Of a stretch of 64,000 bases of DNA, positions 18,950-60,503 are shown piece after piece. The position numbers were made by a program, and so were the translations under genes. Numbering within the stretch: the stretch's first letter is position 1; each line of letters opens with the position of its first letter. Under the pieces are notes generated by a model, which worked only from the letters and a program-made list of their open reading frames with translations, made no database searches and was not told where the DNA came from. Source of the stretch: Naegleria gruberi (taxonomy: Eukaryota). Location of the stretch: assembly GCA_000004985.1 (NCBI GenBank), contig GG738867.1; one strand, written 5' to 3'.

Positions 18950-20398
18950 TTCGTTTTATGTATTCAAAGAGTTTCTTCAAATTTCAAATGTTTTTCATGA
19001 TTATTATGATGTTACATGTAAGGGTAAGTCCAAAGTAAATGGTGGTCAATGGGTATGTTGGAGGTTTCGGCTGAGTTTGGATCTGCCAACATCAGATGAT
19101 TCCTTCAGCAACCAAAGGGAATTCAGTACAATCAATGGCTGAGCGGGCCACCAATGGTTGGGCGGGCCACCAACAACATTTCGCCGCACCAACAACATTT
19201 GACCGCCTCAACTGCTACAGGCGCAAAGGTAGCAGGAGGCCTCTACCGGTCAACATTAAAAACATGGAAGACTGATTTTGTCATCATTCAATATGGAGTC
19301 TGTATTCAGCTTGATACAGTGCGAATTGTTTCTTCATTGATTTGGGATGGAATTTCAGACAGAAATTGAGTTGTTGCTCTCCGTTATTGTTCACTTAATC
19401 AAAGTCCCAAGCCTACGAAAACTAATCGAATGCACTTCATCCACACTCTCATCCTCCAACTCATCATTGGTTCATCAACACTCTCCTAGACCAAATCTCA
19501 ACCAAAGAAGCCGAACATTGTTGTATCTGTTGGAAGAGAACTTCTTAAAGAATTTCAAACCACTCTTCATCGTTTCTTAATGTCAAAGTTGATCAATTAC
19601 TGGCAAACATGTTGTCCTCACCTATTATCAGAAATGTAACATCATGATAAGGATTTTGTTTGCAACTAAAATCATCAATAATGGTCAAGATGACAGAAGA
19701 AGAATTAGAAGAAGAACTTGAGCGTACTTTTACCCTTTCAGATTTGCAATAATTAAAGCCAGCCAAGATATTATACTGCCCAAACCAAAATCAAATCCTC
19801 AATCAATATCAGAACTTCCGCTGAGATCAGCCAAGACCTAAAACGGAAACTCCACCAACAAGAAGAAAAGTCATAGAACCCAACAACATACCACATACCA
19901 CCAAGCACAGAAGAAGATATTACTCATTTAATGATGCAGATGTGGTGTATAAGGTAACAAGAGAAGTAGAAATGCTACTAAGCATATTGGCATGACTAGC
20001 ATTAGCTTTGTTTTGTTGGAGCGGCCAATTAATGTTGGCCCGGGCAAATAGGTTTTGGCGTGGCGGGAAACCATTGGCGTGGCTGGCTTTTATTTACTCC
20101 CCCAGCAACAATTGGCTACCTCAACAACCAAAAAAAGTACCAGAAATCATCTACCGCCACCAGTACACACGATTTTGGAGTTACCCTCTTTGGAAAGGAT
20201 GGAGTGTCAAGTAACGAAGGCGCTTCAATTCAATCAACTAACCAATCAATATCTGAAAATGGCTAAAGAGTCGCAGATTTTTTGATTGACCAGGAGAATC
20301 CTTTGCTAGGTCAAAAATATATGAAATTCAAAAAAAGTCTTATTAACATCTTCTAAAAAAAAAAGAATAATCACCTTAATTTGGCAATAATTGGTAAA

Positions 20399-20487
20399 AG
20401 GCGACTGAGGGAATTGAACCCTCGACCCTCAGTTATCTCGACATTTCTGCCTACAAGACTGATGCACTGCCACTGTGCTAAGCCGCC
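20399..20487 (-). tRNA. tRNA-Thr(UGU) with a 17-nt intron (tentative isotype)
   Basis: On the minus strand the 7-bp acceptor stem is GGCGGCT/AGTCGCC with one G-U pair. The D arm is GCAC-AGTGGCA-GTGC and the T arm is GAGGG-TTCAATT-CCCTC. The anticodon stem TCAGT/ACTGA is formed only if 17 nt (GGCAGAAATGTCGAGAT) are removed 3' of position 37. The loop is C-T-TGT-A, giving anticodon UGU. TTTT follows the 3' end. Confidence 0.7.
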
Positions 20488-20707
20488 TTACAATCGATGA
20501 ATTCACTCAAAAATAAATGCAAAACAATTGCTAAAATAAAAGTGTTTATCTTAAATTCCTCATTCTAACTCTCTATTCCAATCTTTACTCATTCACATAT
20601 TCACAAACACAAATCAAAAGAACTTTAATTGCCAATTATCTAAGTTTGTGAGCTCATGTCATTCGTGCCAACACTAAATTATATATCAAACTTGAATTGT
20701 CATCAGA

Positions 20708-35346: not shown

Positions 35347-38037
35347 TTGTTTGGACAACTGTTGATAATTAAAAAATCTGATACCAGTCAGTTTACAATG
35401 AGTCTGTCCTCTGGTAAGGTGTGCAATGCTGTCACAAGAAAAAAAATGCTTTCCCAAGATGATGAAAAAAGTTACCGAAATTGTCAAGAATTAGTTAAAT
35501 GGTTGGAGGAACAGAGGTGTCCACCCACGATTAGAAAAGGTAGGCTGCTCTAAGTGATTTATTAATTATTAATACTTTGGGTAAATCAGCATTACAAGAT
35601 AACGCTTGTGATGAGTGGATTTTGTGTAACAGTGATGAAGAAACTCTGTTGCAAGAATTAAATCTAACCAAATTACAATTACGCGCGTTGATGAGATTCA
35701 TCACTAACTCCTCCTCATCGTCAAGCAATAGCAGCAGCTCATCATCAAACTCTACCAAGAAAGATACACCACAAATTACTTCGAATGAATTTGACAACAA
35801 GTATAACAACATTGGTTTACTGGGAAGTGGAGGTTACGGAAAAGTGTATAAAGTGACGCTCAAGCATAAACCAAGTATTATGCGAGCTGTCAAGGTAATT
35901 GAAGATCGATACGATTTTACTGTTAACGAAGCATTGAAAGAAGTAATGCAAACAATGAAAGTTGCACACAAACATGTTGTGCAAATATATGATGTTACTA
36001 TTACTAATAATCGTTCACTGATGATTGAGATGGAATGTTTGGAATGTGGAAGTTTATACGACCATTTCATTAGGAAACGAGTTAAGCCTTCTGAAAGGAT
36101 AGCCATTTCAATCATTCAGCAGATATTAAGCGCACTTCAATTTATGCAAAAAAGTTTTAAAATGGTTCACAGAGATGTCAAACCAGCAAACATTTTGATT
36201 AGATCTATCGATTTAGACAAGGGTGAAATTGATGTTTGTTTGGCAGATTTTGGATTTGCAAGATCATTTGAACCTTCATCTCAAATATCTAACATTTACG
36301 GTACATTTTCTTATTTAGCTCCTGAAGTTAAATTAGTTTTGGACAATGATGAAATGAGATCAAAACAACCCTACTCAGTAGCTTCTGATATTTATGCATT
36401 AGGTGCAACAATGTTTTATCTAATGACGTTTAATCAAGCCAACCAAGCCAATCATCAATTATTGAATTCGCTAAACCATTACTCATCGAAACTGGTTGCA
36501 ATTATTTTGAAAATGTTAAGTGAAGATCCAATAGATAGACATTTAGAAATTACTACAATCAATATGTCACAAATTTCTACTTTTGGACATGATAACCAAG
36601 TCAAGGAATTAAAGAATCAAGTGACCGAAACAACCTTAGAATCTACAATTATTCAACATACTGCAAATCAAGAAAATATAGTTACTCAATATAATTTAGG
36701 TATGAAGTATATAAAAGGAGAAGGATGTGAAAAATCATTTGAAAAAGCATTTGAATGGTTTGAAAAATCTGCAAATCAAGGATATAATGAAGCCCAATAT
36801 AGGTTAGGTTTGATGTATTGCTTTGGACAAGGATGTAACGAATCATTTGAAAAAGCATTTGAATGGTATGAAAAATCTGCAAATCAAGGACATAATGAGG
36901 CGCAATTTAGGTTAGGTTTGATGTATTATCTTGGAAATGGATGTAAACAATCATTTGAAAAAGCATTTGAATGGTATGAAAAATCTGCAAATCAAGGAAT
37001 TGCTATTGCTCAACATATGTTTGGTGAGATGTATTTACAAGGAGAAGGATGCAAACAATTATTTGAAAAAGCATTTGAATGGTTTGAAAAATCTGCAAAT
37101 CAAGGATATAATGAAGCGCAATTTAATTTAGGTTCGATGTATTTAATTGGAGAAGGATGTGACAAATCATTTGAAAAAGCATTTGAATGGTTTGAAAAAT
37201 CTGCAAATCAAGGACACAAAATGCACAATTTTATTTAGGTTTGATGTATTATAATGGACAAGGATGTCAACAATCATTTGAAAAAGCTCTTAAATGGTAT
37301 GAAAAATCTGCAAATCAAGGACATAATGAGGCGCAATTTAGGTTAGGTTTGATGTATTATCTTGGAAAAAGATGTAGACAATCATTTGAAAAAGCATTTG
37401 AATGGGTTGAAAAATCTGCAAATCAAGGATATGATGAAGCACAATTTAAGTTAGCCTGGATGTATTTTAATGGAGAAGGATGTGAAAAATCATGTGAAAA
37501 AGCATTTGAATGGTATGAAAAATCTGCAAATCAAGGTCATACAAAAGCTCCATATAGGTTAGGTTTGATGTATTATCTTGGAAAAGGATGTAAACAATCA
37601 TTTGAAAAAGCATTTGAATGGTATGAAAAATCTGCTAATCAAGAAAATGCAGTTGCTAAATTTAATTTAGGTTTGATGTATTATAATGGAGAAGGATGTC
37701 AACAATCATTTGAAAAAGCACTTAAATGGTATAAAAAAGCTGCTAATCAAGAACATGCTAATGCTCAATTTAATTTAGGTTTGATGTATTATAATGGAAA
37801 AGGATGTGAAAAATCATTTGAAAAAGCATTTGAATGGTATGAAAAAGCTGCTAATCAAGAACATGTAAATGCTCAACATGTATTTAGGTTAGATGTATTT
37901 TAATGGAGAAGGATGTAAACAATCATTTGAAAAAGCATTTGAATGGTATGAAAAATCTGCAAATCAAGGACATAATGGTGCGCAATTTAGGTTAGGTTTG
38001 ATGTATTATCTTGGAAAAGGATGTAGACAATCATTTG
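35347..38037 (+). CDS. Ser/Thr protein kinase fused to a long Sel1-like (SLR) repeat array; 3' end lost in assembly gap
   Basis: Exon 1 is 35347..35539 (phase-1 gtaggc donor, 50-nt intron) and exon 2 starts at 35590. Kinase motifs are GSGGYGKVYKV, HRDVKPANILI, DFGFAR and YLAPE. From about 36690 there are at least 12 near-identical 36-aa repeats (GEGCEKSFEKAFEWYEKSANQGHNEAQFRLGLMYY). Frame breaks occur at about 37225 and about 37890 inside the array. Confidence 0.7.
36690..38037 (+). repeat. Tandem array of ~108-bp near-identical units (Sel1 repeat coding), truncated by gap
   Basis: The period is 108 bp with more than 90 percent identity between units. The units can be read by eye in the sequence (tcatttgaaaaagcatttgaatggtatgaaaaatctgcaaatcaagg...). 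Confidence 0.85.
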
Positions 38038-40933: not shown

Positions 40934-43900
40934 ATGATTAGAACATCATCATCGCTGCCGAAAAATAGTAGTGGCAAGGCTTCTTCAACAAAATCAAATA
41001 CTGAGGAGCTTTGTGATTATTATAAAAGATCATTTTCTTTATTGTATGGAGTTTTGACTTCTCCTGTAGATAATTTTCCGTGGGTATGTGTGGATTAATC
41101 ATCATGATGATTTTTAATATGAATTGTTTACTATTAAATAGGCTCAAGTTTTGGAAAGTGTAAAGAATTCATTAAAGGATGTATGGAAAAGTTTTGAAAA
41201 TAGAAAACCTGAAGAAAAGGATATCAAACAAAAGGATATTGTTTCTGAATTGGTGAAGAGAACGGTATGTTTTGGAGATATCAAAATTTATTGATTATCA
41301 TTCTTGTAGAAATTAAACGAAGATAGCTGTTACAGATTGTTGGAAGATTATGTTGTTTGTGAAGCTCCTGATGCTCTCACATCAGACTCACAATCCATTC
41401 AAAAAGTATGTTCACATTCTTGATTATTATAATAATTATAATAATAACTTAATTAATAATATTAATGGATTATTATCTAAATATTTAGATTATTAATTTT
41501 TATTATTCGGAAAGAATTTTATTACTAGAGTGTATTTCAACAATTCTTAGGATTGATACTGAATATTCGGAAGACGATAATTGTGATGAAAGGACAAAAG
41601 TTTGCCACGATATTGCAACTTGGCTTTTCAATAATAACCTTGAACAAACTATGCACACCCTATTTTTTGATGCCTGTGATATTAACACACATTTGAAGAG
41701 TATTAATGAGTCATCATTAACCGAGACTGAAGCCACCAGAAGAAAGGTAGAGCTTACCGAACAAAAATTGAATGAACAAGCTTCTATACTAAATGTCTTG
41801 TTCATGCTCTATTATGGAAGACAATGCGATTTCAAAACATTTTTAAATTTAATTTCTCAACATTATCATGTAAGTATACTGAAACTTAAATATATTACTC
41901 ACACTTGTTCTAAAGGCAAACGATTTCGGAAATATTAATAGAAGTATTGGAAATGTTTCTATTAAAGGATTTCAAACAATAAGGAGAATAGTATGTTTGT
42001 CTGTACTGCTCTTTGTGGAAATTCTTGGATTTGAAAACGCTCTTGAAAAAACAAATCAAGGTGGAACATACTCTTCCTTCAAAGAAAGAGAAATTGCTAT
42101 GATAAATGACAACCTCAAGACACTTATTGATGAACCTCACACGGCAGCCATCAGAATATTTTGGGCAGCTTTCCTTCATCTTACCCAAAATAATGTTTCA
42201 CCACAAGTAATTTATGATCTGGCTCAAAAAGGTATTAAAGAAAATGGATTGGAATTTATTAGAAAAATGTTTGACAGAGATGATAATCCATTTGTGGTAA
42301 ATAATAATAATATTGAGGGTTATAGAACAGTGGTTTCAGGAGGAGTTTCATGCATCTACTTTTTATTTAGATTCCACAAAATTCCATATCAAATTTTGGA
42401 GCAAGTTTTTTCTGTAACTGAAATAGTTATACAACCAAAACCATACTGTATCGAGGATCAAAAATTATCCATGATTTTTAACGATCAAATGTTACAGAAG
42501 CCATATAGCGAGCTGTTGACATATTTCAAATTAGTATTTCCTGCTAGGAAAGAAATTCTTAGATTATTATCTTTAATGTGTTGTGATAATCAAAGTACAG
42601 TGAGCGTGAGATCTATTATGGAGTCACAAGACACATACTGTATTGAGATGACCCACACAGAGCTTAAGAGAATATGCGGACTGGACCAATCAAATTCAAA
42701 TGAATGGGAAACAAAACAAACACCTTTAGTTACGATAACATCAGTTAGAGACGAGACTACTAATGTAGTGATTCCACCAAATGTACAATGCATAGTTGTT
42801 AATCAAACTGCAGAAACCTGCCTTGTAACTTTCAACTTTTCAAGCTATATTTGGAAACTCATGTTTAGTCAAATTATTGAAGTGTTGCAAAATTCTGTTT
42901 CTATCAATAATCCACATGTTCGTTCGACAATGCACTATTTTTTGAATTTACTCTATAGAGTCATTAGTTTCAAAATGCTTAACATTGAAAAATTAGAAAA
43001 ATACTTGATTGAATTGCTTTTAAGTAAGCAAATTTATTCATCCAGAGACGAGAAGAGAGGAATTGTACAACTTCTTTCACACTTATTGAAGTATTTCTCT
43101 GATTTCCCACTTTCAAGCATTCCTATGGAAATAGTATTATCATGTTCTAAATGTTTGCATGCTCTTTCTGAAGTATCTCCTGTGGATACAGCATGCCAAG
43201 TTTCTCTTTTGATTCAAAAGTATCATTTTTCAAATATTTTGAGAGAAGAATGTATGATTGGTAGATATGGTGCAACCCTAAGCTTACTGGACACAGTGTT
43301 GTCATTGGCCAAAAATCATCCAGGACCAATGGATTCTGTCATAGAAATTCAACCTTTTATTTGCAGCAACATATTTTCTGTTCATGATTCATGGAGATAT
43401 CAAAAATTGGAAGAAAGATGGTTGATTGCTCTTAAGTGTCTTCAAATTTTCAACCAAATTGCTCAAGATTCATTGTGGGCTGAAAGAAAGTCTTCTCAAT
43501 CTCTTGTAGGATGTGGTGGTAGACCACTTTTGAATGCCTTCCTTCACGATGGTAGTTTGTATCAAGTTTTGTTCTCATTGATTGGCTTGGGTGGTACTTT
43601 TCTTGAGAATATCCTTCGTCATGAAAAGACAGATGAAGCAGCAACAGTTCAAAGTCTTATTGTTGAATCTCTCAAGTTGTTGGATTCAATCTTGAGATTC
43701 AGACAAATTGCCAAAGCAACAAATATTTCAACATTTGAGGATGTACTTTTCTCAAAGTTACTAGGAAAACAACAAGTGCCACTCATTACTTCTATTTTTG
43801 AATTTATTGATCATCCTAATGCGCCAGAAATTAGAATTTTAGCATGTAAGATTATTACCTTGATTGCTCAACTCACTGAAGACTACAATTCCAGACCTCC

Positions 43901-46823
43901 ATCCCTTGTTGGTTATTTGGGTAACCAATCTAGCTCTCTAGTTGGGCGTTGCTTGTACAGACTTCAGAGTGTTGGTGAAAGTGATGAATTGAAAATTGCA
44001 CTTCTTGATTTAATTTCAACAACAGTAGAAATTCAAAGAGGTTTGGCTGACTTGTTCTTGACCTCAACACCAGCAAAGATTAAAATCAAGAAGGAGAAGA
44101 ACGATGAAGAGCTCGCCCCTGGAGGTGTTCTTGTTACAATTTTAAAGATTATAGAAAATACTGAAAATTATATTGTAGAAAAGAGAACAAGTCTAGTAAG
44201 AAGTGCTTTGGCTGTCATTCAATCTATTTTCCAAAATGGAGAGAATAGATCCAAAATTACAAAGATTTTAAGAAATGACAGCTATTTCTGGAAATCAATG
44301 AAGAATATGTTTACCATCTTTACCAAAGATGAATCCACTAGTAAGAATATTGATATCCTTAGATCTATTACTTCAGTTATTGCTATTTGCTCTGTCGATA
44401 TGTACAATCTCAGAATATTGAAACAAGACCATAGTATGGAAACTGATATTGAAAAGACTCTCTTTGAAAAGGACTCTAAAACAATTCAAACTATACTCAA
44501 GACTTCAATTTCATTCATTATGAACAATATTAACTACTTGTCTGGTCTTATTCAAGATATTGATAGACTTTCAAAGAGAGATTCACAACAATTGGGAAGA
44601 GAAATTTTCTTCTCGGACTATCTCCTTGAAAGAAATACCAAGAAGGATGTTCTGTATGATACAGATAGAATTGTGAGATGGGAAACTGGTATTAGTGCCG
44701 AGTTACTCGACTCTCTATCATTGCTAAATCAAAAAATTGCCGTAGAGGAAGCATTTATTGCTCTGCTTAAATCCTTGCATGCCTTGTTTTCTGTGAGCTT
44801 GGAATCTCCTCTTCTCACAAGAGAGGAATCATCTGAAGAATACTTTTTGAATATTATTGATATTCTAGTTGTAGGACTCAAGATTTCAGAAGGTGATGCT
44901 ATGACCAAATATGTTTTCAACCCAACCAATGAATTCGGTCTCGATCTTGAAGTTTATGTTCCATTGCCAAAACTTTTGGATAACCTATTGAATACCTTCC
45001 ACATTGAAGTTGCTGCAATGCTAGCCAAGCTAATCCACAAATTCAACGCCAATTTCCCTCCAACAGATTTGATTGAAAAGCACAGCAGTTGGCTTTCTGA
45101 CCATTTATCAAAGTTGACACATTTATTACATACACAAGTTCAAAGAAAGAAGTCTAATGCAACAAAAGAAATTTTGGGTTGTCTCTTGATGTACTTTGTT
45201 GATTTGGATGAAGCTATTGGTGTCAGAACATGTTCCAAACTCACTCCAATACTTTTCCAAATCTTGAAGACATTTAACAGATACGAGCAATGCACAGAAT
45301 TGGCTATTTCGATTTTGGCTGTTTGTATCAAAGTTACTATCAATGAAGAATATGGAAACTATATTTGCAGAGAACTATGTGAATGTTTGACCACTTTTGA
45401 TGGAGTTGACGAACAACATTCTAAACACACCATTAACGTTCTCAATTTACTTTTGGCTTTCTCCACTACTCGAGCTGGAAGTTCAATGATGGTTGCCAAC
45501 AATATCTTACAAAAGTTTTCTGGTTGTACATTTTTAAGTTCTGGATGTGGAAAATATGCAGGTCAGACCTACTTTGAAGGAGAAAGAACTTACTGGCATA
45601 CTGCTTGGAGATATAGCTTGAAGATTATCACTACTCTCTTGAATTGTTACTATGTTGCAACTCAACCTAAGAGAAATATGGCCATGATGGATGAAGATAC
45701 AAACTATGGTCAATATCAATATTTTGTTCAACAAGTTCAAGATTTTTGTAATACTCACAGAAAGAGATTAGTTTTAGGTTTGGATGAATTATGGGATAAG
45801 AGACCTTTGACTTTTGCTCTTATTGAAGAAGTTGAACTCATTGGTATGCTAGTGAATGCACTTGCCAGATCTCACATTTTACCAAATTTACCTTACCTTG
45901 TCCAATCATCTCTTGTAGCAACAGCCAAGTGCGTGAATGCTGTTAAGCATTTTAGATTGATTTTGTCTGCTGTTACCCCAATCACACAACACGAAAGAAA
46001 ACTCCACGAAAAGGACAAACATTATATGGAAGAACTTCGTGCCTCCAGACCAACCTCAACAGGTACCAAGACTAGACGCCCTTTCAGAGAAAGAACAAAC
46101 TATGAAAACACCATTCCTTACAATTCTGAAGAGTCTCCATTTATTACCCATGCTACAGATGCTATCAAGAATCTTTATCAAGGAAGAGAGATGTTAAATT
46201 GGAATACTCAAATAGATTTGACAGTTTTTGGAACATTACAAAGCTTGGTTGCATCCATTCGTTGTTTGACCATTCTTCCTAGTGATGATGGAATTGAACA
46301 ACCTGTAGAGCCTGTTATTGTTCTTTCAATGCAATCCAATAGCCCTAATATTGAAACAATCTTCAAATGTGCTGAAGCTTGTGTTGATACCCTAAAGATT
46401 ATACCTTCGAGCAAATATAATACTGAACTAAGCAACAACAAGACAGGAAATGAGCTTGGCTCTTCAACTCCAACCGAGACACTCTCACCTTCATTCAGCG
46501 CAACTACTGAAAGAATGAGCAAAGAACAAGAGGCTATGATTAAGGCTAGACTTTTGGTGACACGTGTAGTGGTGGGTACTTTACAGGAATCTATCAATGT
46601 TATTGTTTCACACGTTTTGATTTATGAATTTATTGCCTATGGAGAGGAAAGTCAATCTGTTCGTGAAGTAAGAAATCACATGAAGGAACGTTTTGAATTT
46701 TTCCACAGAACTTGTGAGGGATTGTCGACGAAAAGTTGGTTCTTTATGAAGCATCCTGAACCTTTGCGAACAGTGCTCACACTTTTGAGAGATGTTATCG
46801 ACCTAGGTGGTTTAAAACAATAA
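40934..46823 (+). CDS. Large alpha-solenoid protein (~1885 aa), 5 exons; possibly nucleoporin Nup188/Nup205-like (unassigned)
   Basis: Exons are 40934..41083, 41142..41264, 41310..41405, 41489..41869 and 41916..46823. All donors are gtatgt or gtaagt, phases are consistent, and introns are 46-84 nt. The protein is Leu-rich and helical throughout with no catalytic motif. Confidence 0.65.
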
Positions 46824-46831
46824 TTTATAAA

Positions 46832-48919
46832 TTACAATTTGTCTAGTATGTTTCTGACTCGCTTAAAGTTACTAACTTTTCGTTCCTGCAAAGTAGATTT
46901 GTCTGATTTTAAGAGCTGGTTCTTAAAATGCACTCGTTCATCAATCAAGTGTTGTTCATAATTTTCCAAATCTTTCCTCATACCTCCACCATTCATTTTA
47001 ATGTAGTGACTTAGGTTTCCTAGTAATGAATAGAAGCAACTTGTGGATACTATTCCATTTTCACTAGTTGAATATGCGACAGGAACATATTCTGGATGCT
47101 TATGTTTCTTGCTTATAAAAGTAAGAGTTGGCTGACTGCTGTGGTTTGCAACTTTTGCAGATTCATGGAAATTGGAAAACGAAAGTTCCAAATTAGTTTG
47201 GTAAATTCTTTGGGGAATTGGAACGCCAAAATTATTGTATATACAATCTAGTCCTAGTGTAGAATCGTTACTTTCTGCTGGTTGAGGTATCAGCCCAATA
47301 GCGCTGAATTTGATTTCCTTTCTCCAGTTTTGTGTGCTTAATTTGTATTTCTGTAATAAGGTTTTATCCAATATCGAAGGGAAGTATGGAATTCTAGAAG
47401 ACAACTCTACATATGATGAAATGTCAACAGAGCAAGGTGCTGTCACATTCAAAGTGAATGAATTACCCCATGCACTTGAGCTTACACCTGAAAAGTACAA
47501 TCTTCTACCATCTCGATCGGTTTCAATAAGTGTTCCCTTCACATATAGCTTGGAAACAATTTGACTGTGCACATATTCGTTTCTAGATGGTCTATGAACT
47601 CCTTTAGGTTTAAAGTTTGCTTTTTTCACTTTGGAAATTGGTGGTTGACCCTCCAATCTAATCATTCTGTATCTGTATACTAAAGCTCCAAAATCACCTG
47701 TTTTTAACCTTTGTGGTTCTCTCCAATAATCGGTAACCCAATATAACCCATCATATCTATAACCTTTAGCAGGTGCATAGGCAGAATCTAATTGATAACC
47801 TCTCACAAGTCTGACTGGCATTCTTCTTTTCATACTCTCCACCAAACTGATATTATATCGATTAAGAGTTTGATTCTCAGTATCAGTACCACCTTGACCA
47901 GTATAAATAAAAACATCTCCATAATCTTCGTCTCCATATCCACCCATAGCCATAGCAACAATAGAATCAGATGGAACACCAAAATGCCCACTGATACCAG
48001 GTTGAGTTGGTGTGTGTGAACCTTTCCTTGAGCATGTTAATCTAGTTTCATAAACTGTAAAGACGTCATCTCTGTGACCATACACTCTACTTTTAATCCT
48101 GATAGGTTCTGTGAGTAGCTCATCTGCCTTCTCATCTCTGTATCGAATAGTTTTCCACTCGGAAGCTTTTCCCATAAACTTTTTGTCCTTCTCTGTAATT
48201 GTTGAACTTCTCTTTAGTTTCATATCAATTTCAAGTTTCTTTGTTTCCTGATCCTCCTCTTCGTCATGAGTGGCAACAACAAGTCTTGAACCAGAGTGAT
48301 GCAAAAGTTTGACAGATCCATTCTTTATATCCACAAAAGCATCTGTTCTTCCAGCTTCATTATTTTCCATGCAAATTGTAACAAGATCCTTATCTTTCAC
48401 TTGAGTGATGTCCTTACTTTCATCATAGTCAATTGCACAAAATGGTGTGGAATCTGAAATGAAAGCAGTCAAAGTAACTCTTTGCTTTTTATCATTAGCC
48501 TTCTCCGTCACTTGGTCAATTTTGGCTATCATGTTGCTCTCCTTTTCATCATCCTCTTCAAGTTGCAACTTTTTTGATTGTTTCCGTGATGATGCATTTT
48601 TCCATTCCTTCGCCGAAGTTAATTTTGCCTGTTTGGCTTTGGATACTCCATTAGTTGATGTTGTCTTTCTCTTGTTGTTAGTTTTATCACTTGTTGTTGT
48701 TGATGATTTTGATTTCTTATTATTGGTTGTCTTTGACTTGGTTATAACAGGAGAAGACATTAATTCATCAGAGTCATCAGATAATTCATTCATTTTCTTC
48801 TTCTTACTCCTATTAATCTTATATTCCTCATATTGATCCGATGAAGAAGAATCATCTAAATATTTTGTGTGATTCTTGTTGGTTAGAGTAGCCGTTTCAC
48901 CACTCCTGATAATTCTCAT
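46832..48919 (-). CDS. SRA (SET and RING-associated, YDG) domain protein without recognisable SET/RING/PHD partner domains
   Basis: The SRA region is GHFGVPSDSIVAMAMGGYGDEDYGDVFIYTGQGG...PVRLVRGYQLDSAYAPAKGYRYDGLYWV. It is flanked by a basic Lys/Ser-rich N-terminus and an unassigned C-terminal domain of about 250 aa. Confidence 0.7.
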   Translation of the reverse strand: MRIIRSGETATLTNKNHTKYLDDSSSSDQYEEYKINRSKKKKMNELSDDSDELMSSPVITKSKTTNNKKSKSSTTTSDKTNNKRKTTSTNGVSKAKQAKLTSAKEWKNASSRKQSKKLQLEEDDEKESNMIAKIDQVTEKANDKKQRVTLTAFISDSTPFCAIDYDESKDITQVKDKDLVTICMENNEAGRTDAFVDIKNGSVKLLHHSGSRLVVATHDEEEDQETKKLEIDMKLKRSSTITEKDKKFMGKASEWKTIRYRDEKADELLTEPIRIKSRVYGHRDDVFTVYETRLTCSRKGSHTPTQPGISGHFGVPSDSIVAMAMGGYGDEDYGDVFIYTGQGGTDTENQTLNRYNISLVESMKRRMPVRLVRGYQLDSAYAPAKGYRYDGLYWVTDYWREPQRLKTGDFGALVYRYRMIRLEGQPPISKVKKANFKPKGVHRPSRNEYVHSQIVSKLYVKGTLIETDRDGRRLYFSGVSSSAWGNSFTLNVTAPCSVDISSYVELSSRIPYFPSILDKTLLQKYKLSTQNWRKEIKFSAIGLIPQPAESNDSTLGLDCIYNNFGVPIPQRIYQTNLELSFSNFHESAKVANHSSQPTLTFISKKHKHPEYVPVAYSTSENGIVSTSCFYSLLGNLSHYIKMNGGGMRKDLENYEQHLIDERVHFKNQLLKSDKSTLQERKVSNFKRVRNILDKL

Positions 48920-48963
48920 TTTTTTTGAACGTTTAAATGTTTTTGAAATTTGGCGGCAAAAGT

Positions 48964-49923
48964 TTATTCTCTTCTCTTGGTTGGCATGAGTGAGGCAACT
49001 CTACTCTTATCCTTTCTCTTGGTCTTTTTGATGAATTTGTTCATCTTGCCTGATTTTTTGATACCTTCAACTTTTCTTTCTTTGAGAATCTTTTTCACAT
49101 CAGAATCTTTTAAGAAGTAAGCTTGTTTACCCTTTTCTGAGATTAATTTCTTTTCTCTCTTGTAGAATGAGTCTTTGACCTCTGCAACGGCCTTTTGAGT
49201 TTCGAATTTCTTATTTCTGGTTTGAAGTCTTGAAATTTCTCTTTGAATTTCATTTCTGTCCTCATAGGTCAGTGATTTATCTCTTAATCTTTCTCTATTT
49301 TCGTCTATTTCATCCTTTAATTGATCGAAAACATGTTTATAATGGCCAGAAAATTGTTTAAACGATGATGGATCTGTATCACTTGCTGTTGGGTCAAATC
49401 TAGGATCACGTGACTTTTTTTTCACATAACCCAATCTCTTTGCAATGTCTGGAATGGATTTTGGTTTGAGTTTTGAACTCACTTCCTTTGGAGCATTCTT
49501 ATTTTTCCTTTCAATAACAGTCTTTTCACCCTTTTCAACTTTTTTCTTTGTTGGAGTATGATGTTTACCATTACGATGTCTATTTTGTTGTTGAAGATGC
49601 TTATCATTTGTTTTGAAATTTGATTTTGGTTTCATATTACTGAGTGCCAATCTTTCAGCAAATGAAAGTGTTTTTTCATCCTCCGAAGATGATTCTTTAT
49701 CCTCCTCTTCATCATCTTCCATTTCTTCATCTTCATCTTGTTCTTGTTGTTCGGAATTGTCAGCCTGTTGTTCCTCTTCATAGAGTGCATTTAGTTCATC
49801 ATCATTTAATTCATCCTCTTCATCTATTGGTTCTTGTTCCGCATCATCATATTGATTTTCCACCTCATCGTCATCGTATTGTGGTGCTGTTTGCTTTCTC
49901 TTTAGAAACATTTTTTTTGTCAA
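48964..49923 (-). CDS. Acidic/basic nucleolar-type protein, RRP36-like (tentative)
   Basis: The 319-aa ORF has a poly-acidic N-terminus, a basic C-terminus, and FLKDSDVKKILKERKVEGIKK, which resembles the DUF947/RRP36 tail. Confidence 0.4.
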   Translation of the reverse strand: MTKKMFLKRKQTAPQYDDDEVENQYDDAEQEPIDEEDELNDDELNALYEEEQQADNSEQQEQDEDEEMEDDEEEDKESSSEDEKTLSFAERLALSNMKPKSNFKTNDKHLQQQNRHRNGKHHTPTKKKVEKGEKTVIERKNKNAPKEVSSKLKPKSIPDIAKRLGYVKKKSRDPRFDPTASDTDPSSFKQFSGHYKHVFDQLKDEIDENRERLRDKSLTYEDRNEIQREISRLQTRNKKFETQKAVAEVKDSFYKREKKLISEKGKQAYFLKDSDVKKILKERKVEGIKKSGKMNKFIKKTKRKDKSRVASLMPTKRRE

Positions 49924-60430: not shown

Positions 60431-60503
60431 GCCCGTCCAGCTCAGTCGGTAGAGCGCAAGGCTCTTAACCTTGTGGTCGTGGGTTCGACCCCCACGGTGG
60501 GCG
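60431..60503 (+). tRNA. tRNA-Lys(CUU)
   Basis: GCCCGTCCAGCTCAGTCGGTAGAGCGCAAGGCTCTTAACCTTGTGGTCGTGGGTTCGACCCCCACGGTGGGCG folds as a canonical cloverleaf. The anticodon loop is CT-CTT-AA, the T loop is TTCGACC, and the discriminator is G. TTTT lies 6 nt downstream. Confidence 0.9.

What the first reader, a model, noticed from the sequence alone, without database searches (positions are those of the whole stretch)
46832..48919. Stand-alone SRA/YDG domain protein in an amoebozoan
The SRA fold with the YDG signature, which flips 5-methylcytosine in UHRF1 and SUVH proteins, is present without SET, RING, PHD or Tudor partners. It is flanked instead by a basic N-terminus and an unassigned C-terminal domain of about 250 aa. 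Dictyostelids are reported to have only Dnmt2-type methylation. A dedicated modified-base reader, or an SRA domain coupled to an unknown effector domain, would be notable.
Basis: partly seen in the sequence, partly recalled or inferred. Interest (0 to 1): 0.6.

Follow-up and report, generated by a model that had tools for sequence, protein, structure and literature searches.

The report
Naegleria SRA-only methylcytosine reader gene
This is a real 695-residue gene of the amoeboflagellate Naegleria gruberi (not a dictyostelid) that carries a lone SRA methylcytosine-binding domain plus a tail found only in Naegleria's relatives; because Naegleria does methylate its DNA and a sister copy of the gene is already catalogued, it is a useful candidate reader, not a paradox.

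Summary
The ORF at 46832..48919 (minus strand, 695 aa) is real. It contains a strong SAD/SRA domain (Pfam 101 bits, cutoff 30.7) and no SET, RING, PHD or Tudor domain.

The taxonomic premise is wrong. The window is Naegleria gruberi (Heterolobosea), which has DNMT1 orthologues, TET-like enzymes and 5mC in all dinucleotide contexts. A 5mC reader there is expected.

The SRA domain is of the SUVH5/bacterial type. It has a thumb glutamine, an identical pocket and no NKR finger. This predicts context-independent 5mC binding, which fits Naegleria's non-CpG methylome.

The roughly 270-aa C-terminal region is shared only with heterolobosean relatives. It matches no known family or structure and is not confidently folded, apart from two terminal helices. 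It has no conserved catalytic-looking residues, so an adaptor role is more likely than an enzyme.

The paralogue XP_002680882 is already listed in the literature as an SRA-only "UHRF1". This copy was overlooked because the reference model (XP_002677427, 319 aa) contains a spurious 68-nt intron that deletes the SRA core.

Verdict: a new member of a known kind, of modest interest.

The parts
46832..48919 (-). Complete coding sequence, 695 codons plus stop. It has a single exon, and the start Met aligns with those of the orthologues.
   Evidence: ORF list. Full-length alignment with Naegleria lovaniensis, N. fowleri and Willaertia orthologues.
48266..48919 (-). Residues 1-218: N-terminal region rich in Ser, Thr, Lys and Asn, poorly conserved and probably disordered. 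It contains basic clusters that may serve nuclear localisation or non-specific DNA binding (inferred).
   Evidence: pLDDT about 30. Net charge +11 in residues 81-120 and 3-37% identity to orthologues per 20-residue block.
48146..48265 (-). Residues 219-258: conserved helical extension just upstream of the SRA domain, with the family motif ITxxDKxxxGxAxxW.
   Evidence: pLDDT 74-92 with helices 219-236, 243-248 and 252-255. The motif is present in both paralogue groups and in Acrasis.
47645..48067 (-). Residues 285-425: SAD/SRA domain.
   Evidence: Pfam 101 bits. PDB sequence hits to SUVH5, TagI and UHRF1. AF2 pLDDT 80-95. Foldseek TM 0.82-0.87 to SUVH5 SRA.
48002..48004 (-). Codon for Gln306, the thumb-loop residue equivalent to SUVH5 Gln392. 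UHRF1 has Val446 at this position.
   Evidence: Alignments. Role of Gln392 from PMC4740795. The residue is invariant in the family.
47888..47944 (-). Residues 326-344 (GGYGDEDYGDVFIYTGQGG): the walls of the 5mC pocket. Tyr328, Asp330, Tyr339 and Gln342 correspond to SUVH5 Tyr416, Asp418, Tyr428 and Gln431.
   Evidence: Alignment. Residue roles. These residues are invariant.
47847..47914 (-). A 68-nt GT..AG stretch that the reference annotation treats as an intron. It actually encodes residues 336-358 of the SRA core.
   Evidence: Mapping of P0017 (XP_002677427) onto the ORF. Sequence read directly.
47741..47761 (-). Residues 387-393 (YRYDGLY): the YDG signature.
   Evidence: Read directly from the translation. 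These residues are invariant in all SRA sequences aligned.
46979..47644 (-). Residues 426-647: C-terminal region restricted to Heterolobosea. It consists of short conserved blocks separated by variable linkers and has no known fold.
   Evidence: Alignment of the tails. No Pfam, PDB, NCBIfam or PADLOC match. An exhaustive profile search found only heterolobosean proteins. pLDDT 23-47.
46835..46978 (-). Residues 648-695: two C-terminal amphipathic helices ending in the family motif ERKxxNFxRxRxIxxKL. They are a likely site of dimerisation or partner binding (inferred).
   Evidence: Helices 648-671 and 674-694 with pLDDT 54-72. This is the best-conserved block of the tail.

Best explanation
The gene encodes a nuclear reader of 5-methylcytosine in Naegleria gruberi. 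The SRA domain (residues about 278-432, supported by a conserved helical extension at 219-258) is inferred to bind methylated DNA by flipping the modified cytosine into a pocket formed by Tyr328, Tyr339, Asp330 and Gln342. The thumb residue Gln306 would fill the gap and pair with the orphan guanine, as in Arabidopsis SUVH5 and bacterial SRA-HNH proteins. The loop that forms the NKR finger in UHRF1 is deleted. The domain is therefore predicted to read 5mC in any sequence context, hemi- or fully methylated, and probably to tolerate 5hmC. This matches the context-independent (CX) methylation of young transposons and silent genes in this organism. The protein has no enzymatic partner domain. The disordered basic N-terminus and the lineage-specific C-terminal region, which ends in a helical pair, most likely act as an adaptor that oligomerises or recruits other silencing or maintenance factors (DNMT1 orthologues or the H3K9/H3K27 methylation machinery) to methylated DNA. 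What is shown: the gene, the domain, the fold, the pocket and thumb residues, the missing finger, and the family's taxonomic distribution. What is inferred: DNA binding, its specificity, and the adaptor role.
For: An intact 695-codon ORF in roughly 35% GC DNA. The organism is N. gruberi. The SAD_SRA match scores 101 bits. The AF2 model of the SRA domain has pLDDT 80-95, and Foldseek gives TM 0.82-0.87 with rmsd 2.3-2.8 A to SUVH5 SRA-DNA complexes. All six SUVH5 contact residues are identical and invariant across the family. A 10-residue deletion lies exactly at the UHRF1 NKR finger. SRA domains with a thumb Gln and a short finger (SUVH5, Sco5333, Tbis1) bind 5mC in all contexts (PMC4333417; PDB titles). 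N. gruberi has 0.28% 5mC, equal in all four dinucleotide contexts, in 447 hypermethylated regions that coincide with H3K9me3 and H3K27me3, and it has two DNMT1 orthologues (PMC12344493). The SRA core is 75-95% identical between genera while the flanks are 5-45% identical, which indicates purifying selection on the reader module. The C-terminal region has only six invariant residues (four Arg or Leu, one Glu and one further Leu). It has no His, Asp or Cys cluster and no relation to the bacterial HNH tail (hhalign probability 0.1%).
Against: There are no binding data for any member of this family. The adaptor role rests on the absence of recognisable catalytic features. That absence is weak evidence, because only 8-9 sequences were available and the AF2 model of the tail is poor (mean pLDDT 41). 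No partner is known. Genome-wide 5mC in N. gruberi is low at 0.28%. The heterolobosean SRA domains carry their own insertions (AM before GGY, QRLKT after DYWRE), whose effect on specificity is unknown.
Confidence: 0.6

Rival explanations
1. The protein is a functional analogue of UHRF1. It would recognise newly replicated, hemimethylated DNA and recruit or activate the Naegleria DNMT1 orthologues for maintenance, using its lineage-specific tail in place of RING-dependent ubiquitin signalling.
For: The paralogue XP_002680882 is placed in the UHRF1 column of a 180-species survey. The SRA-only Cryptococcus Uhrf1 binds hemimethylated DNA selectively and promotes 5mC. N. gruberi relies on DNMT1 orthologues.
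Against: The NKR finger, which enforces hemi-CpG selectivity in UHRF1, is deleted. CpG methylation symmetry in N. gruberi is weak (r = 0.25) and sites are only partly methylated, which argues against a faithful hemimethyl-copying system. No RING, UBL, PHD or Tudor domain is present.
Confidence: 0.2
2. The C-terminal region is a new effector enzyme, such as a modification-dependent nuclease or glycosylase. The protein would then be a eukaryotic counterpart of bacterial SRA-HNH restriction enzymes.
For: By sequence, the SRA domain is slightly closer to bacterial SRA-HNH proteins (42-50% identity) than to UHRF1 or SUVH (39-41%). TagI is the top Foldseek hit and is tied for the top PDB sequence hit. 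The hydropathy of residues 480-640 is compatible with a globular domain.
Against: hhalign of the tail against the HNH tail gives a probability of 0.1%, and a full-sensitivity HMM search is negative. No match was found in Pfam, NCBIfam, PADLOC or PDB sequences. Only six residues are invariant, with no metal-binding or catalytic pattern. AF2 does not fold the region. The heterolobosean SRA domains form their own clade and are not nested within bacterial sequences.
Confidence: 0.07
3. The physiological ligand is not 5mC but an oxidised or otherwise modified base made by the expanded TET/JBP-like enzymes of Naegleria (5hmC, 5fC, 5caC or 5hmU).
For: NgTet1 oxidises 5mC stepwise in vitro (PMC4678852). 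SUVH5 SRA, whose pocket residues are identical, binds 5hmC as well as 5mC (PDB 4ygi). UHRF2 SRA prefers 5hmC.
Against: Nanopore sequencing detected no 5hmC in N. gruberi hypermethylated regions. The pocket is of the SUVH5 type, not the enlarged UHRF2 type, which has a one-residue insertion and smaller side chains.
Confidence: 0.1
4. The locus is not a functional full-length gene. The reference annotation's 319-aa spliced and truncated product would be the true product, or the locus would be a decaying pseudogene.
For: The reference model XP_002677427 splices out 68 nt with GT..AG ends.
Against: The supposed intron encodes the invariant VFIYTGQGG core and is read through in all orthologues. A 2-kb open frame in roughly 35% GC DNA is not expected by chance. 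The C-terminal 360 residues beyond the truncated model's stop are conserved across three genera.
Confidence: 0.03

Closest known systems
Naegleria gruberi XP_002680882 (NAEGRDRAFT_46701) and its Naegleria orthologues: heterolobosean SRA paralogue group B
   Same: It has the same architecture: a disordered N-terminus, the ITxxDKxxxGDAxxW extension, an SRA domain with a thumb Gln and no finger, and a C-terminal region with the same motif blocks and the same ERKxxxFxRxRxIxxKL end. It is listed as the N. gruberi 'UHRF1' (the SRA-without-RING type) in PMC10538959.
   Different: The SRA domains are 57% identical, and the two sit in separate, well-supported clades (A 88%, B 99% bootstrap). Group B has longer and better-conserved tail motifs (YYYFRERE, HWHGSSSEF, RNEPDG). 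These motifs are degenerate in the window protein.
Arabidopsis SUVH5 SRA domain (PDB 3q0b/c/d/f, 4ygi)
   Same: It is the best structural match (TM 0.82-0.87). The thumb Gln and the pocket residues Tyr, Asp, Tyr and Gln are identical, and the finger loop is short. It reads 5mC independently of sequence context.
   Different: SUVH5 fuses the SRA domain to pre-SET, SET and post-SET histone methyltransferase domains. The window protein has none. Sequence identity is 41%.
Bacterial SRA-HNH modification-dependent endonucleases (TagI 6ghs, Sco5333, Tbis1)
   Same: They show the highest SRA sequence identity outside Heterolobosea (42-50%). They share the GGYxDDEDYGD and YAPxxGYRYDGLYxVxxYW motifs, a thumb Gln and a short finger.
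   Different: No HNH or zinc-finger tail is present. The window gene is eukaryotic and belongs to its own SRA clade. The window protein is 695 aa, against about 290 aa for the bacterial proteins.
Cryptococcus neoformans Uhrf1 (CNAG_00677)
   Same: It is a eukaryotic SRA-containing protein that lacks the Tudor and RING domains. It is shown experimentally to bind methylated DNA and to promote 5mC.
   Different: It is selective for hemimethylated CG and works with Dnmt5. No sequence comparison was made here, and nothing suggests a shared C-terminal region, because the profile search for that region found only heterolobosean proteins.
Mammalian UHRF1/UHRF2
   Same: They share the SRA fold and base-flipping pocket (34% identity by BLASTP; 41% over the trimmed core; structural matches).
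   Different: The window protein has no UBL, tandem Tudor, PHD or RING domain. The NKR finger (N489, R491) is deleted, and thumb Val446 is replaced by Gln.

Membership tests
SAD/SRA domain superfamily (PF02182) | Profile HMM score above the curated gathering threshold | tested here: met
   101 bits against 30.7, E = 6.9e-29, covering profile positions 9-148 of 148.
SAD/SRA domain superfamily (PF02182) | SRA fold | tested here: met
   The AF2 model has pLDDT 80-95 over residues 278-432. All top 50 Foldseek hits in the PDB are SRA domains. SUVH5 gives TM 0.82-0.87 and rmsd 2.3-2.8 A.
SAD/SRA domain superfamily (PF02182) | Base-flipping pocket: two stacking Tyr, an acidic residue for the Watson-Crick edge, and a thumb residue | tested here: met
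   Tyr328, Tyr339, Asp330, Gln342, Gln306 and Gly308 align with SUVH5 Tyr416, Tyr428, Asp418, Gln431, Gln392 and Gly394. They are invariant in the family.
SAD/SRA domain superfamily (PF02182) | Preferential binding to 5mC-containing DNA | not testable with these tools
   This needs EMSA or ITC with recombinant protein.
UHRF1 / ORTH-VIM type E3 ligases | RING finger, plus UBL, tandem Tudor and PHD domains | tested here: not met
   SAD_SRA is the only Pfam family at E <= 1. The same holds for seven homologues at E <= 0.01.
UHRF1 / ORTH-VIM type E3 ligases | NKR finger (N489, R491) that confers hemimethylated-CpG selectivity | tested here: not met
   There is a 10-residue gap exactly at LSGNKRTAEQ. 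Its numbering is consistent with the residues cited in PMC4333417.
SUVH-type SRA-SET histone methyltransferases | Pre-SET, SET and post-SET catalytic module C-terminal to the SRA domain | tested here: not met
   There is no SET match in Pfam. The tail profile finds no PDB sequence at E <= 10.
SUVH-type SRA-SET histone methyltransferases | SUVH5-type SRA domain: thumb Gln and short finger loop | tested here: met
Bacterial SRA-HNH restriction endonucleases | C-terminal HNH (PF13391) nuclease with a zinc finger | tested here: not met
   hhalign of the tail alignment against an alignment of 60 bacterial HNH tails gives a probability of 0.1%. hmmsearch --max finds no significant hit. There is no CxxC or HNH pattern in the sequence.
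Heterolobosean SRA-plus-tail family (XP_002680882-like) | SRA domain belonging to the heterolobosean clade | tested here: met
   The NJ tree gives 87% bootstrap for the clade. The window protein lies in subclade A with N. lovaniensis and Willaertia (88%). This is a rough distance tree with limited eukaryotic sampling.
Heterolobosean SRA-plus-tail family (XP_002680882-like) | Shared C-terminal motif blocks and terminal helices | tested here: met
   A tail-only profile retrieves exactly the six heterolobosean representatives (E from 1e-55 to 1e-122) and nothing else among 1.84 billion proteins.

The most novel reading that the evidence does not exclude
The heterolobosean-specific C-terminal region could be a previously undescribed module that couples finger-less, context-independent 5mC reading directly to the DNMT1 orthologues or to heterochromatin writers. 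This would be a ubiquitin-independent route for propagating non-CpG methylation, and it could explain how an organism with only DNMT1-type enzymes keeps CX methylation on transposons.
Probability: 0.12. Interest if true: 0.6.

Novelty: new member of a known kind. Interest (0 to 1): 0.3.

Why it matters
Naegleria is one of the few discobans that keep cytosine methylation, and its methylome is unusual. Levels are low, there is no CpG preference, and only DNMT1-type enzymes are present. No reader has been discussed for it. The 2025 methylome paper does not mention SRA or UHRF1.

This gene gives N. gruberi a second SRA reader. The reference proteome hides it because of a faulty gene model. Its finger-less, SUVH5-like pocket fits context-independent methylation. 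That yields a concrete, testable candidate for how 5mC is read in an early-branching eukaryote.

There is also a practical point. Domain censuses built on the reference proteome undercount SRA genes in this species. Beyond that the finding is ordinary: SRA-only proteins are known, and the paralogue is already catalogued.

Tried and rejected
- **Amoebozoan or dictyostelid origin:** rejected. Exact protein matches place the window in N. gruberi, and all close homologues are heterolobosean.
- **A missed SET, RING, PHD or Tudor domain:** rejected. Pfam at E <= 1 on the full protein and at E <= 10 on eight tails found nothing credible.
- **A degenerate HNH nuclease tail, as in the closest bacterial SRA proteins:** rejected (hhalign 0.1%).
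- **Remote homology of the tail:** nothing was found. I tried an exhaustive profile HMM search of 1.84 billion representatives, a profile search against PDB sequences, NCBIfam and PADLOC.
- **Structure route for the tail:** AF2 with 8 sequences gave mean pLDDT 41, and the full-length run was no better. Foldseek on that model gave only noise, with a best E of 1.8 to vimentin. This is uninformative and does not show that a fold is absent.
- **afdb50 fold search:** the library was unavailable.
- **Bacterial origin of the SRA domain by lateral transfer:** not supported. The heterolobosean SRA domains form their own clade, and the identity advantage of bacterial sequences is small. The tree is too crude to settle the question.
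- **dN/dS against the 99%-identical metagenomic copy:** uninformative. There are only two codon differences.
- **Exact look-up of the 695-aa product:** not on record. The truncated reference model explains this.
Full report
**Observation**

The window contains an uninterrupted ORF of 695 codons at 46832..48919 on the minus strand, exactly as reported. Pfam places a SAD/SRA domain at residues 285-425. The match scores E = 6.9e-29 and 101 bits against a gathering cutoff of 30.7, and it covers almost the whole profile. It is the only family reported even at E <= 1, so no SET, RING, PHD or Tudor domain is present. A sequence search of the PDB returns only SRA proteins: SUVH5 (1.2e-17), the bacterial endonuclease TagI (1.4e-17), SUVH6/9/4 and UHRF1/2. 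The N-terminus is basic and low in complexity, and about 270 residues follow the SRA domain without any assignment. The sequence observation is therefore confirmed and is far beyond chance.

**Organism**

The taxonomic premise is wrong. All close homologues are heterolobosean: Naegleria lovaniensis, N. fowleri, Willaertia magna and Acrasis kona. Three other ORFs of the window are residue-for-residue identical to N. gruberi predicted proteins XP_002677419, XP_002677325 and XP_002677424, which lie on one 424-kb scaffold. The window is therefore Naegleria gruberi (Discoba), not an amoebozoan. The neighbouring genes are ordinary nuclear genes. An RRP36 homologue ends 44 bp upstream, and a NUP188 homologue converges with 8 bp between the stop codons.

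This changes the biological context completely. N. gruberi has two DNMT1 orthologues, TET-like dioxygenases and measurable 5mC (0.28%) at equal levels in all four dinucleotide contexts. The methylation is concentrated in 447 hypermethylated regions on young transposons and silent genes, and these regions coincide with H3K9me3 and H3K27me3 (PMC12344493; NgTet1 in PMC4678852). A 5mC reader is expected here.

**The gene model**

No protein identical to the ORF is on record. An SRA-only query explained why. The reference annotation has a 319-aa model at this locus (P0017 = XP_002677427 / NAEGRDRAFT_67439) with no Pfam domain called. That model starts at Met43 and is colinear with the ORF up to residue 335. 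It then removes 68 nt (window 47847..47914, GT..AG) and continues in the +2 frame for 26 codons to a stop. The supposed intron encodes VFIYTGQGGTDTENQTLNRYNISL, which is the invariant heart of the SRA pocket, and every orthologue reads through it. The residues beyond the model's stop are conserved in three genera. A metagenomic contig that is 99.5% identical carries the same open frame of 699 codons. The unspliced 695-aa product is therefore the real one, and the SRA domain is invisible in the reference proteome.

**The SRA domain**

A full-length AlphaFold2 model built from 26 sequences gives pLDDT 80-95 for residues 278-432. It also gives pLDDT 74-92 for a family-conserved helical extension at residues 219-258. 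Foldseek against the PDB returns only SRA domains. SUVH5 SRA-DNA complexes are the best superpositions (TM 0.82-0.87, rmsd 2.3-2.8 A), and TagI has the best E-value.

The alignment to SUVH5 can be combined with the residue roles described for SUVH5 (PMC4740795). The thumb residue Gln392 and Gly394, the stacking Tyr416 and Tyr428, the Watson-Crick contact Asp418 and the pocket residue Gln431 correspond to Gln306, Gly308, Tyr328, Tyr339, Asp330 and Gln342. All are identical to SUVH5 and invariant in the heterolobosean family.

I also aligned the domain against the UHRF1 SRA sequence. The alignment has a 10-residue gap exactly at the NKR finger, and Val446 is replaced by Gln. The literature shows that SRA domains with a thumb Gln and a short finger bind 5mC in all sequence contexts, hemi- or fully methylated. 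UHRF1's long finger is what enforces hemi-CpG selectivity (PMC4333417; PDB titles). I infer that the Naegleria protein reads 5mC independently of context, which matches the CX methylome.

**Relatives**

A rough bootstrapped NJ tree of SRA cores makes the heterolobosean SRA domains a clade of their own (87%). Acrasis branches first, followed by two paralogue groups. Group A (88%) contains this gene, N. lovaniensis XP_044555063 and Willaertia KAL9651734. Group B (99%) contains N. gruberi XP_002680882 and its orthologues. The clade is not nested within bacterial, UHRF1 or SUVH sequences. Identity is 42-50% to bacterial SRA-HNH proteins and 39-41% to UHRF1 and SUVH5/6.

XP_002680882 is the entry given for N. 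gruberi in the 'UHRF1' column of a 180-species survey, which marks SRA-only homologues separately (PMC10538959). The family is therefore already catalogued, and only this paralogue was missed. A functional precedent for an SRA protein without Tudor and RING domains is Cryptococcus Uhrf1, which binds hemimethylated DNA.

**The C-terminal region**

Residues 426-695 align with the tails of both paralogue groups and of Acrasis. The alignment runs through a series of short blocks separated by variable linkers, and it ends in a conserved ERKxxNFxRxRxIxxKL helix.

Nothing known matches this region:
- Pfam at E <= 10 for eight tails found nothing credible.
- A tail profile against all PDB sequences at E <= 10 found nothing.
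- NCBIfam and PADLOC found nothing.
- hhalign against the HNH tails of the closest bacterial SRA proteins gave a probability of 0.1%.
- An exhaustive profile search of 1.84 billion representatives returned only the six heterolobosean representatives.

AlphaFold2 does not fold the region (mean pLDDT 41 alone, and 23-47 in the full-length model). The exception is two terminal helices at 648-694 with pLDDT 54-72. A Foldseek search with that model gave only noise. Only six residues are invariant across the family, and they form no catalytic or metal-binding pattern. Conservation is 20-45%, against 75-95% in the SRA domain.

With so few sequences I cannot tell a novel small domain from a set of linear motifs. 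The evidence favours an interaction or oligomerisation region over an enzyme.

**Mechanism and verdict**

The best-supported reading is a nuclear base-flipping reader of 5mC that is independent of sequence context and probably tolerates 5hmC. Its disordered N-terminus and lineage-specific tail would tether or recruit other silencing or maintenance factors. The gene, domain, fold, pocket, missing finger and taxonomic distribution are shown. The binding, its specificity and the adaptor role are inferred.

The rivals, in order of likelihood, are:
- a UHRF1-like maintenance cofactor, which is weakened by the missing finger and the weak CpG symmetry of the methylome;
- a reader of oxidised bases, given that no 5hmC was detected in this species;
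- a novel effector enzyme, for which there is no supporting feature;
- a truncated gene or pseudogene, which conservation contradicts.

The finding is a new member of a known kind, the SRA-only readers, in an organism where such a reader is expected. Its value lies in correcting the gene model and in offering a specific candidate reader for Naegleria's unusual methylome. Interest is modest at 0.3.

Noticed in passing
window 47847..47914 (minus strand), within 46832..48919: The reference N. gruberi gene model at this locus (XP_002677427 / NAEGRDRAFT_67439, 319 aa) contains a spurious 68-nt GT..AG intron. The intron deletes the invariant SRA core and shifts the frame to an early stop. As a result the SRA domain is absent from the reference proteome, and domain censuses based on that proteome miss it.
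   Followed up: yes
window 41997..46823 (+): A 1608-aa ORF with no Pfam hit is a NUP188 nucleoporin homologue (PDB 7wkk and 5ijo, E about 1e-15). The listed ORF begins at TTG and aligns from residue 269 of the PDB chain, so upstream exons probably exist. Its stop codon lies only 8 bp from the stop of the convergent SRA gene.
   Followed up: partly
window 48964..49923 (-): An RRP36 rRNA-biogenesis homologue (Pfam 100 bits) ends 44 bp upstream of the SRA gene's ATG on the same strand. The SRA promoter and 5'UTR must therefore overlap the neighbour's 3' end.
   Followed up: partly
P0025 and P0026 (JGI metagenome proteins): Two environmental proteins of 260-272 aa begin inside an SRA domain (IPVRVIRGSxLESPxAPKxGYRYDGLYWVTDYWRE). 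They continue into a tail with a PKQMNWRP...SRxAYL block and a terminal RIRKAVNxLN helix. They resemble divergent, partly called members of the heterolobosean family from uncultured relatives. They did not pass the threshold in the tail-profile search.
   Followed up: no
L001 (ENA ERZ929261, contig k127_351845, 5448 nt): This metagenomic contig is 99.5% identical to window 44243..49669 (L001 1..5448) and has the same order of three genes. A Naegleria strain nearly identical to N. gruberi was therefore present in that sample. Its copy has two small in-frame insertions (T, and GEY) in the disordered N-terminus.
   Followed up: partly
P0008 (Acrasis kona KAL0489491): The Acrasis homologue is named 'E3 ubiquitin-protein ligase' in its source record, but Pfam finds only an SRA domain and no RING. 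The name appears to have been transferred from UHRF1.
   Followed up: partly
window 20398..20488 (-): The tRNA-Thr(TGT) call is 91 nt long, which is longer than a standard tRNA and suggests an intron. A normal 73-nt tRNA-Lys(CTT) lies at 60431..60503.
   Followed up: no
window 35577..37238 and 37241..37903 (+): A protein kinase with Sel1 repeats (553 aa) is followed immediately by a second ORF in a different frame that consists entirely of Sel1 repeats (220 aa). This is probably a single gene interrupted by a short intron or a frameshift.
   Followed up: no
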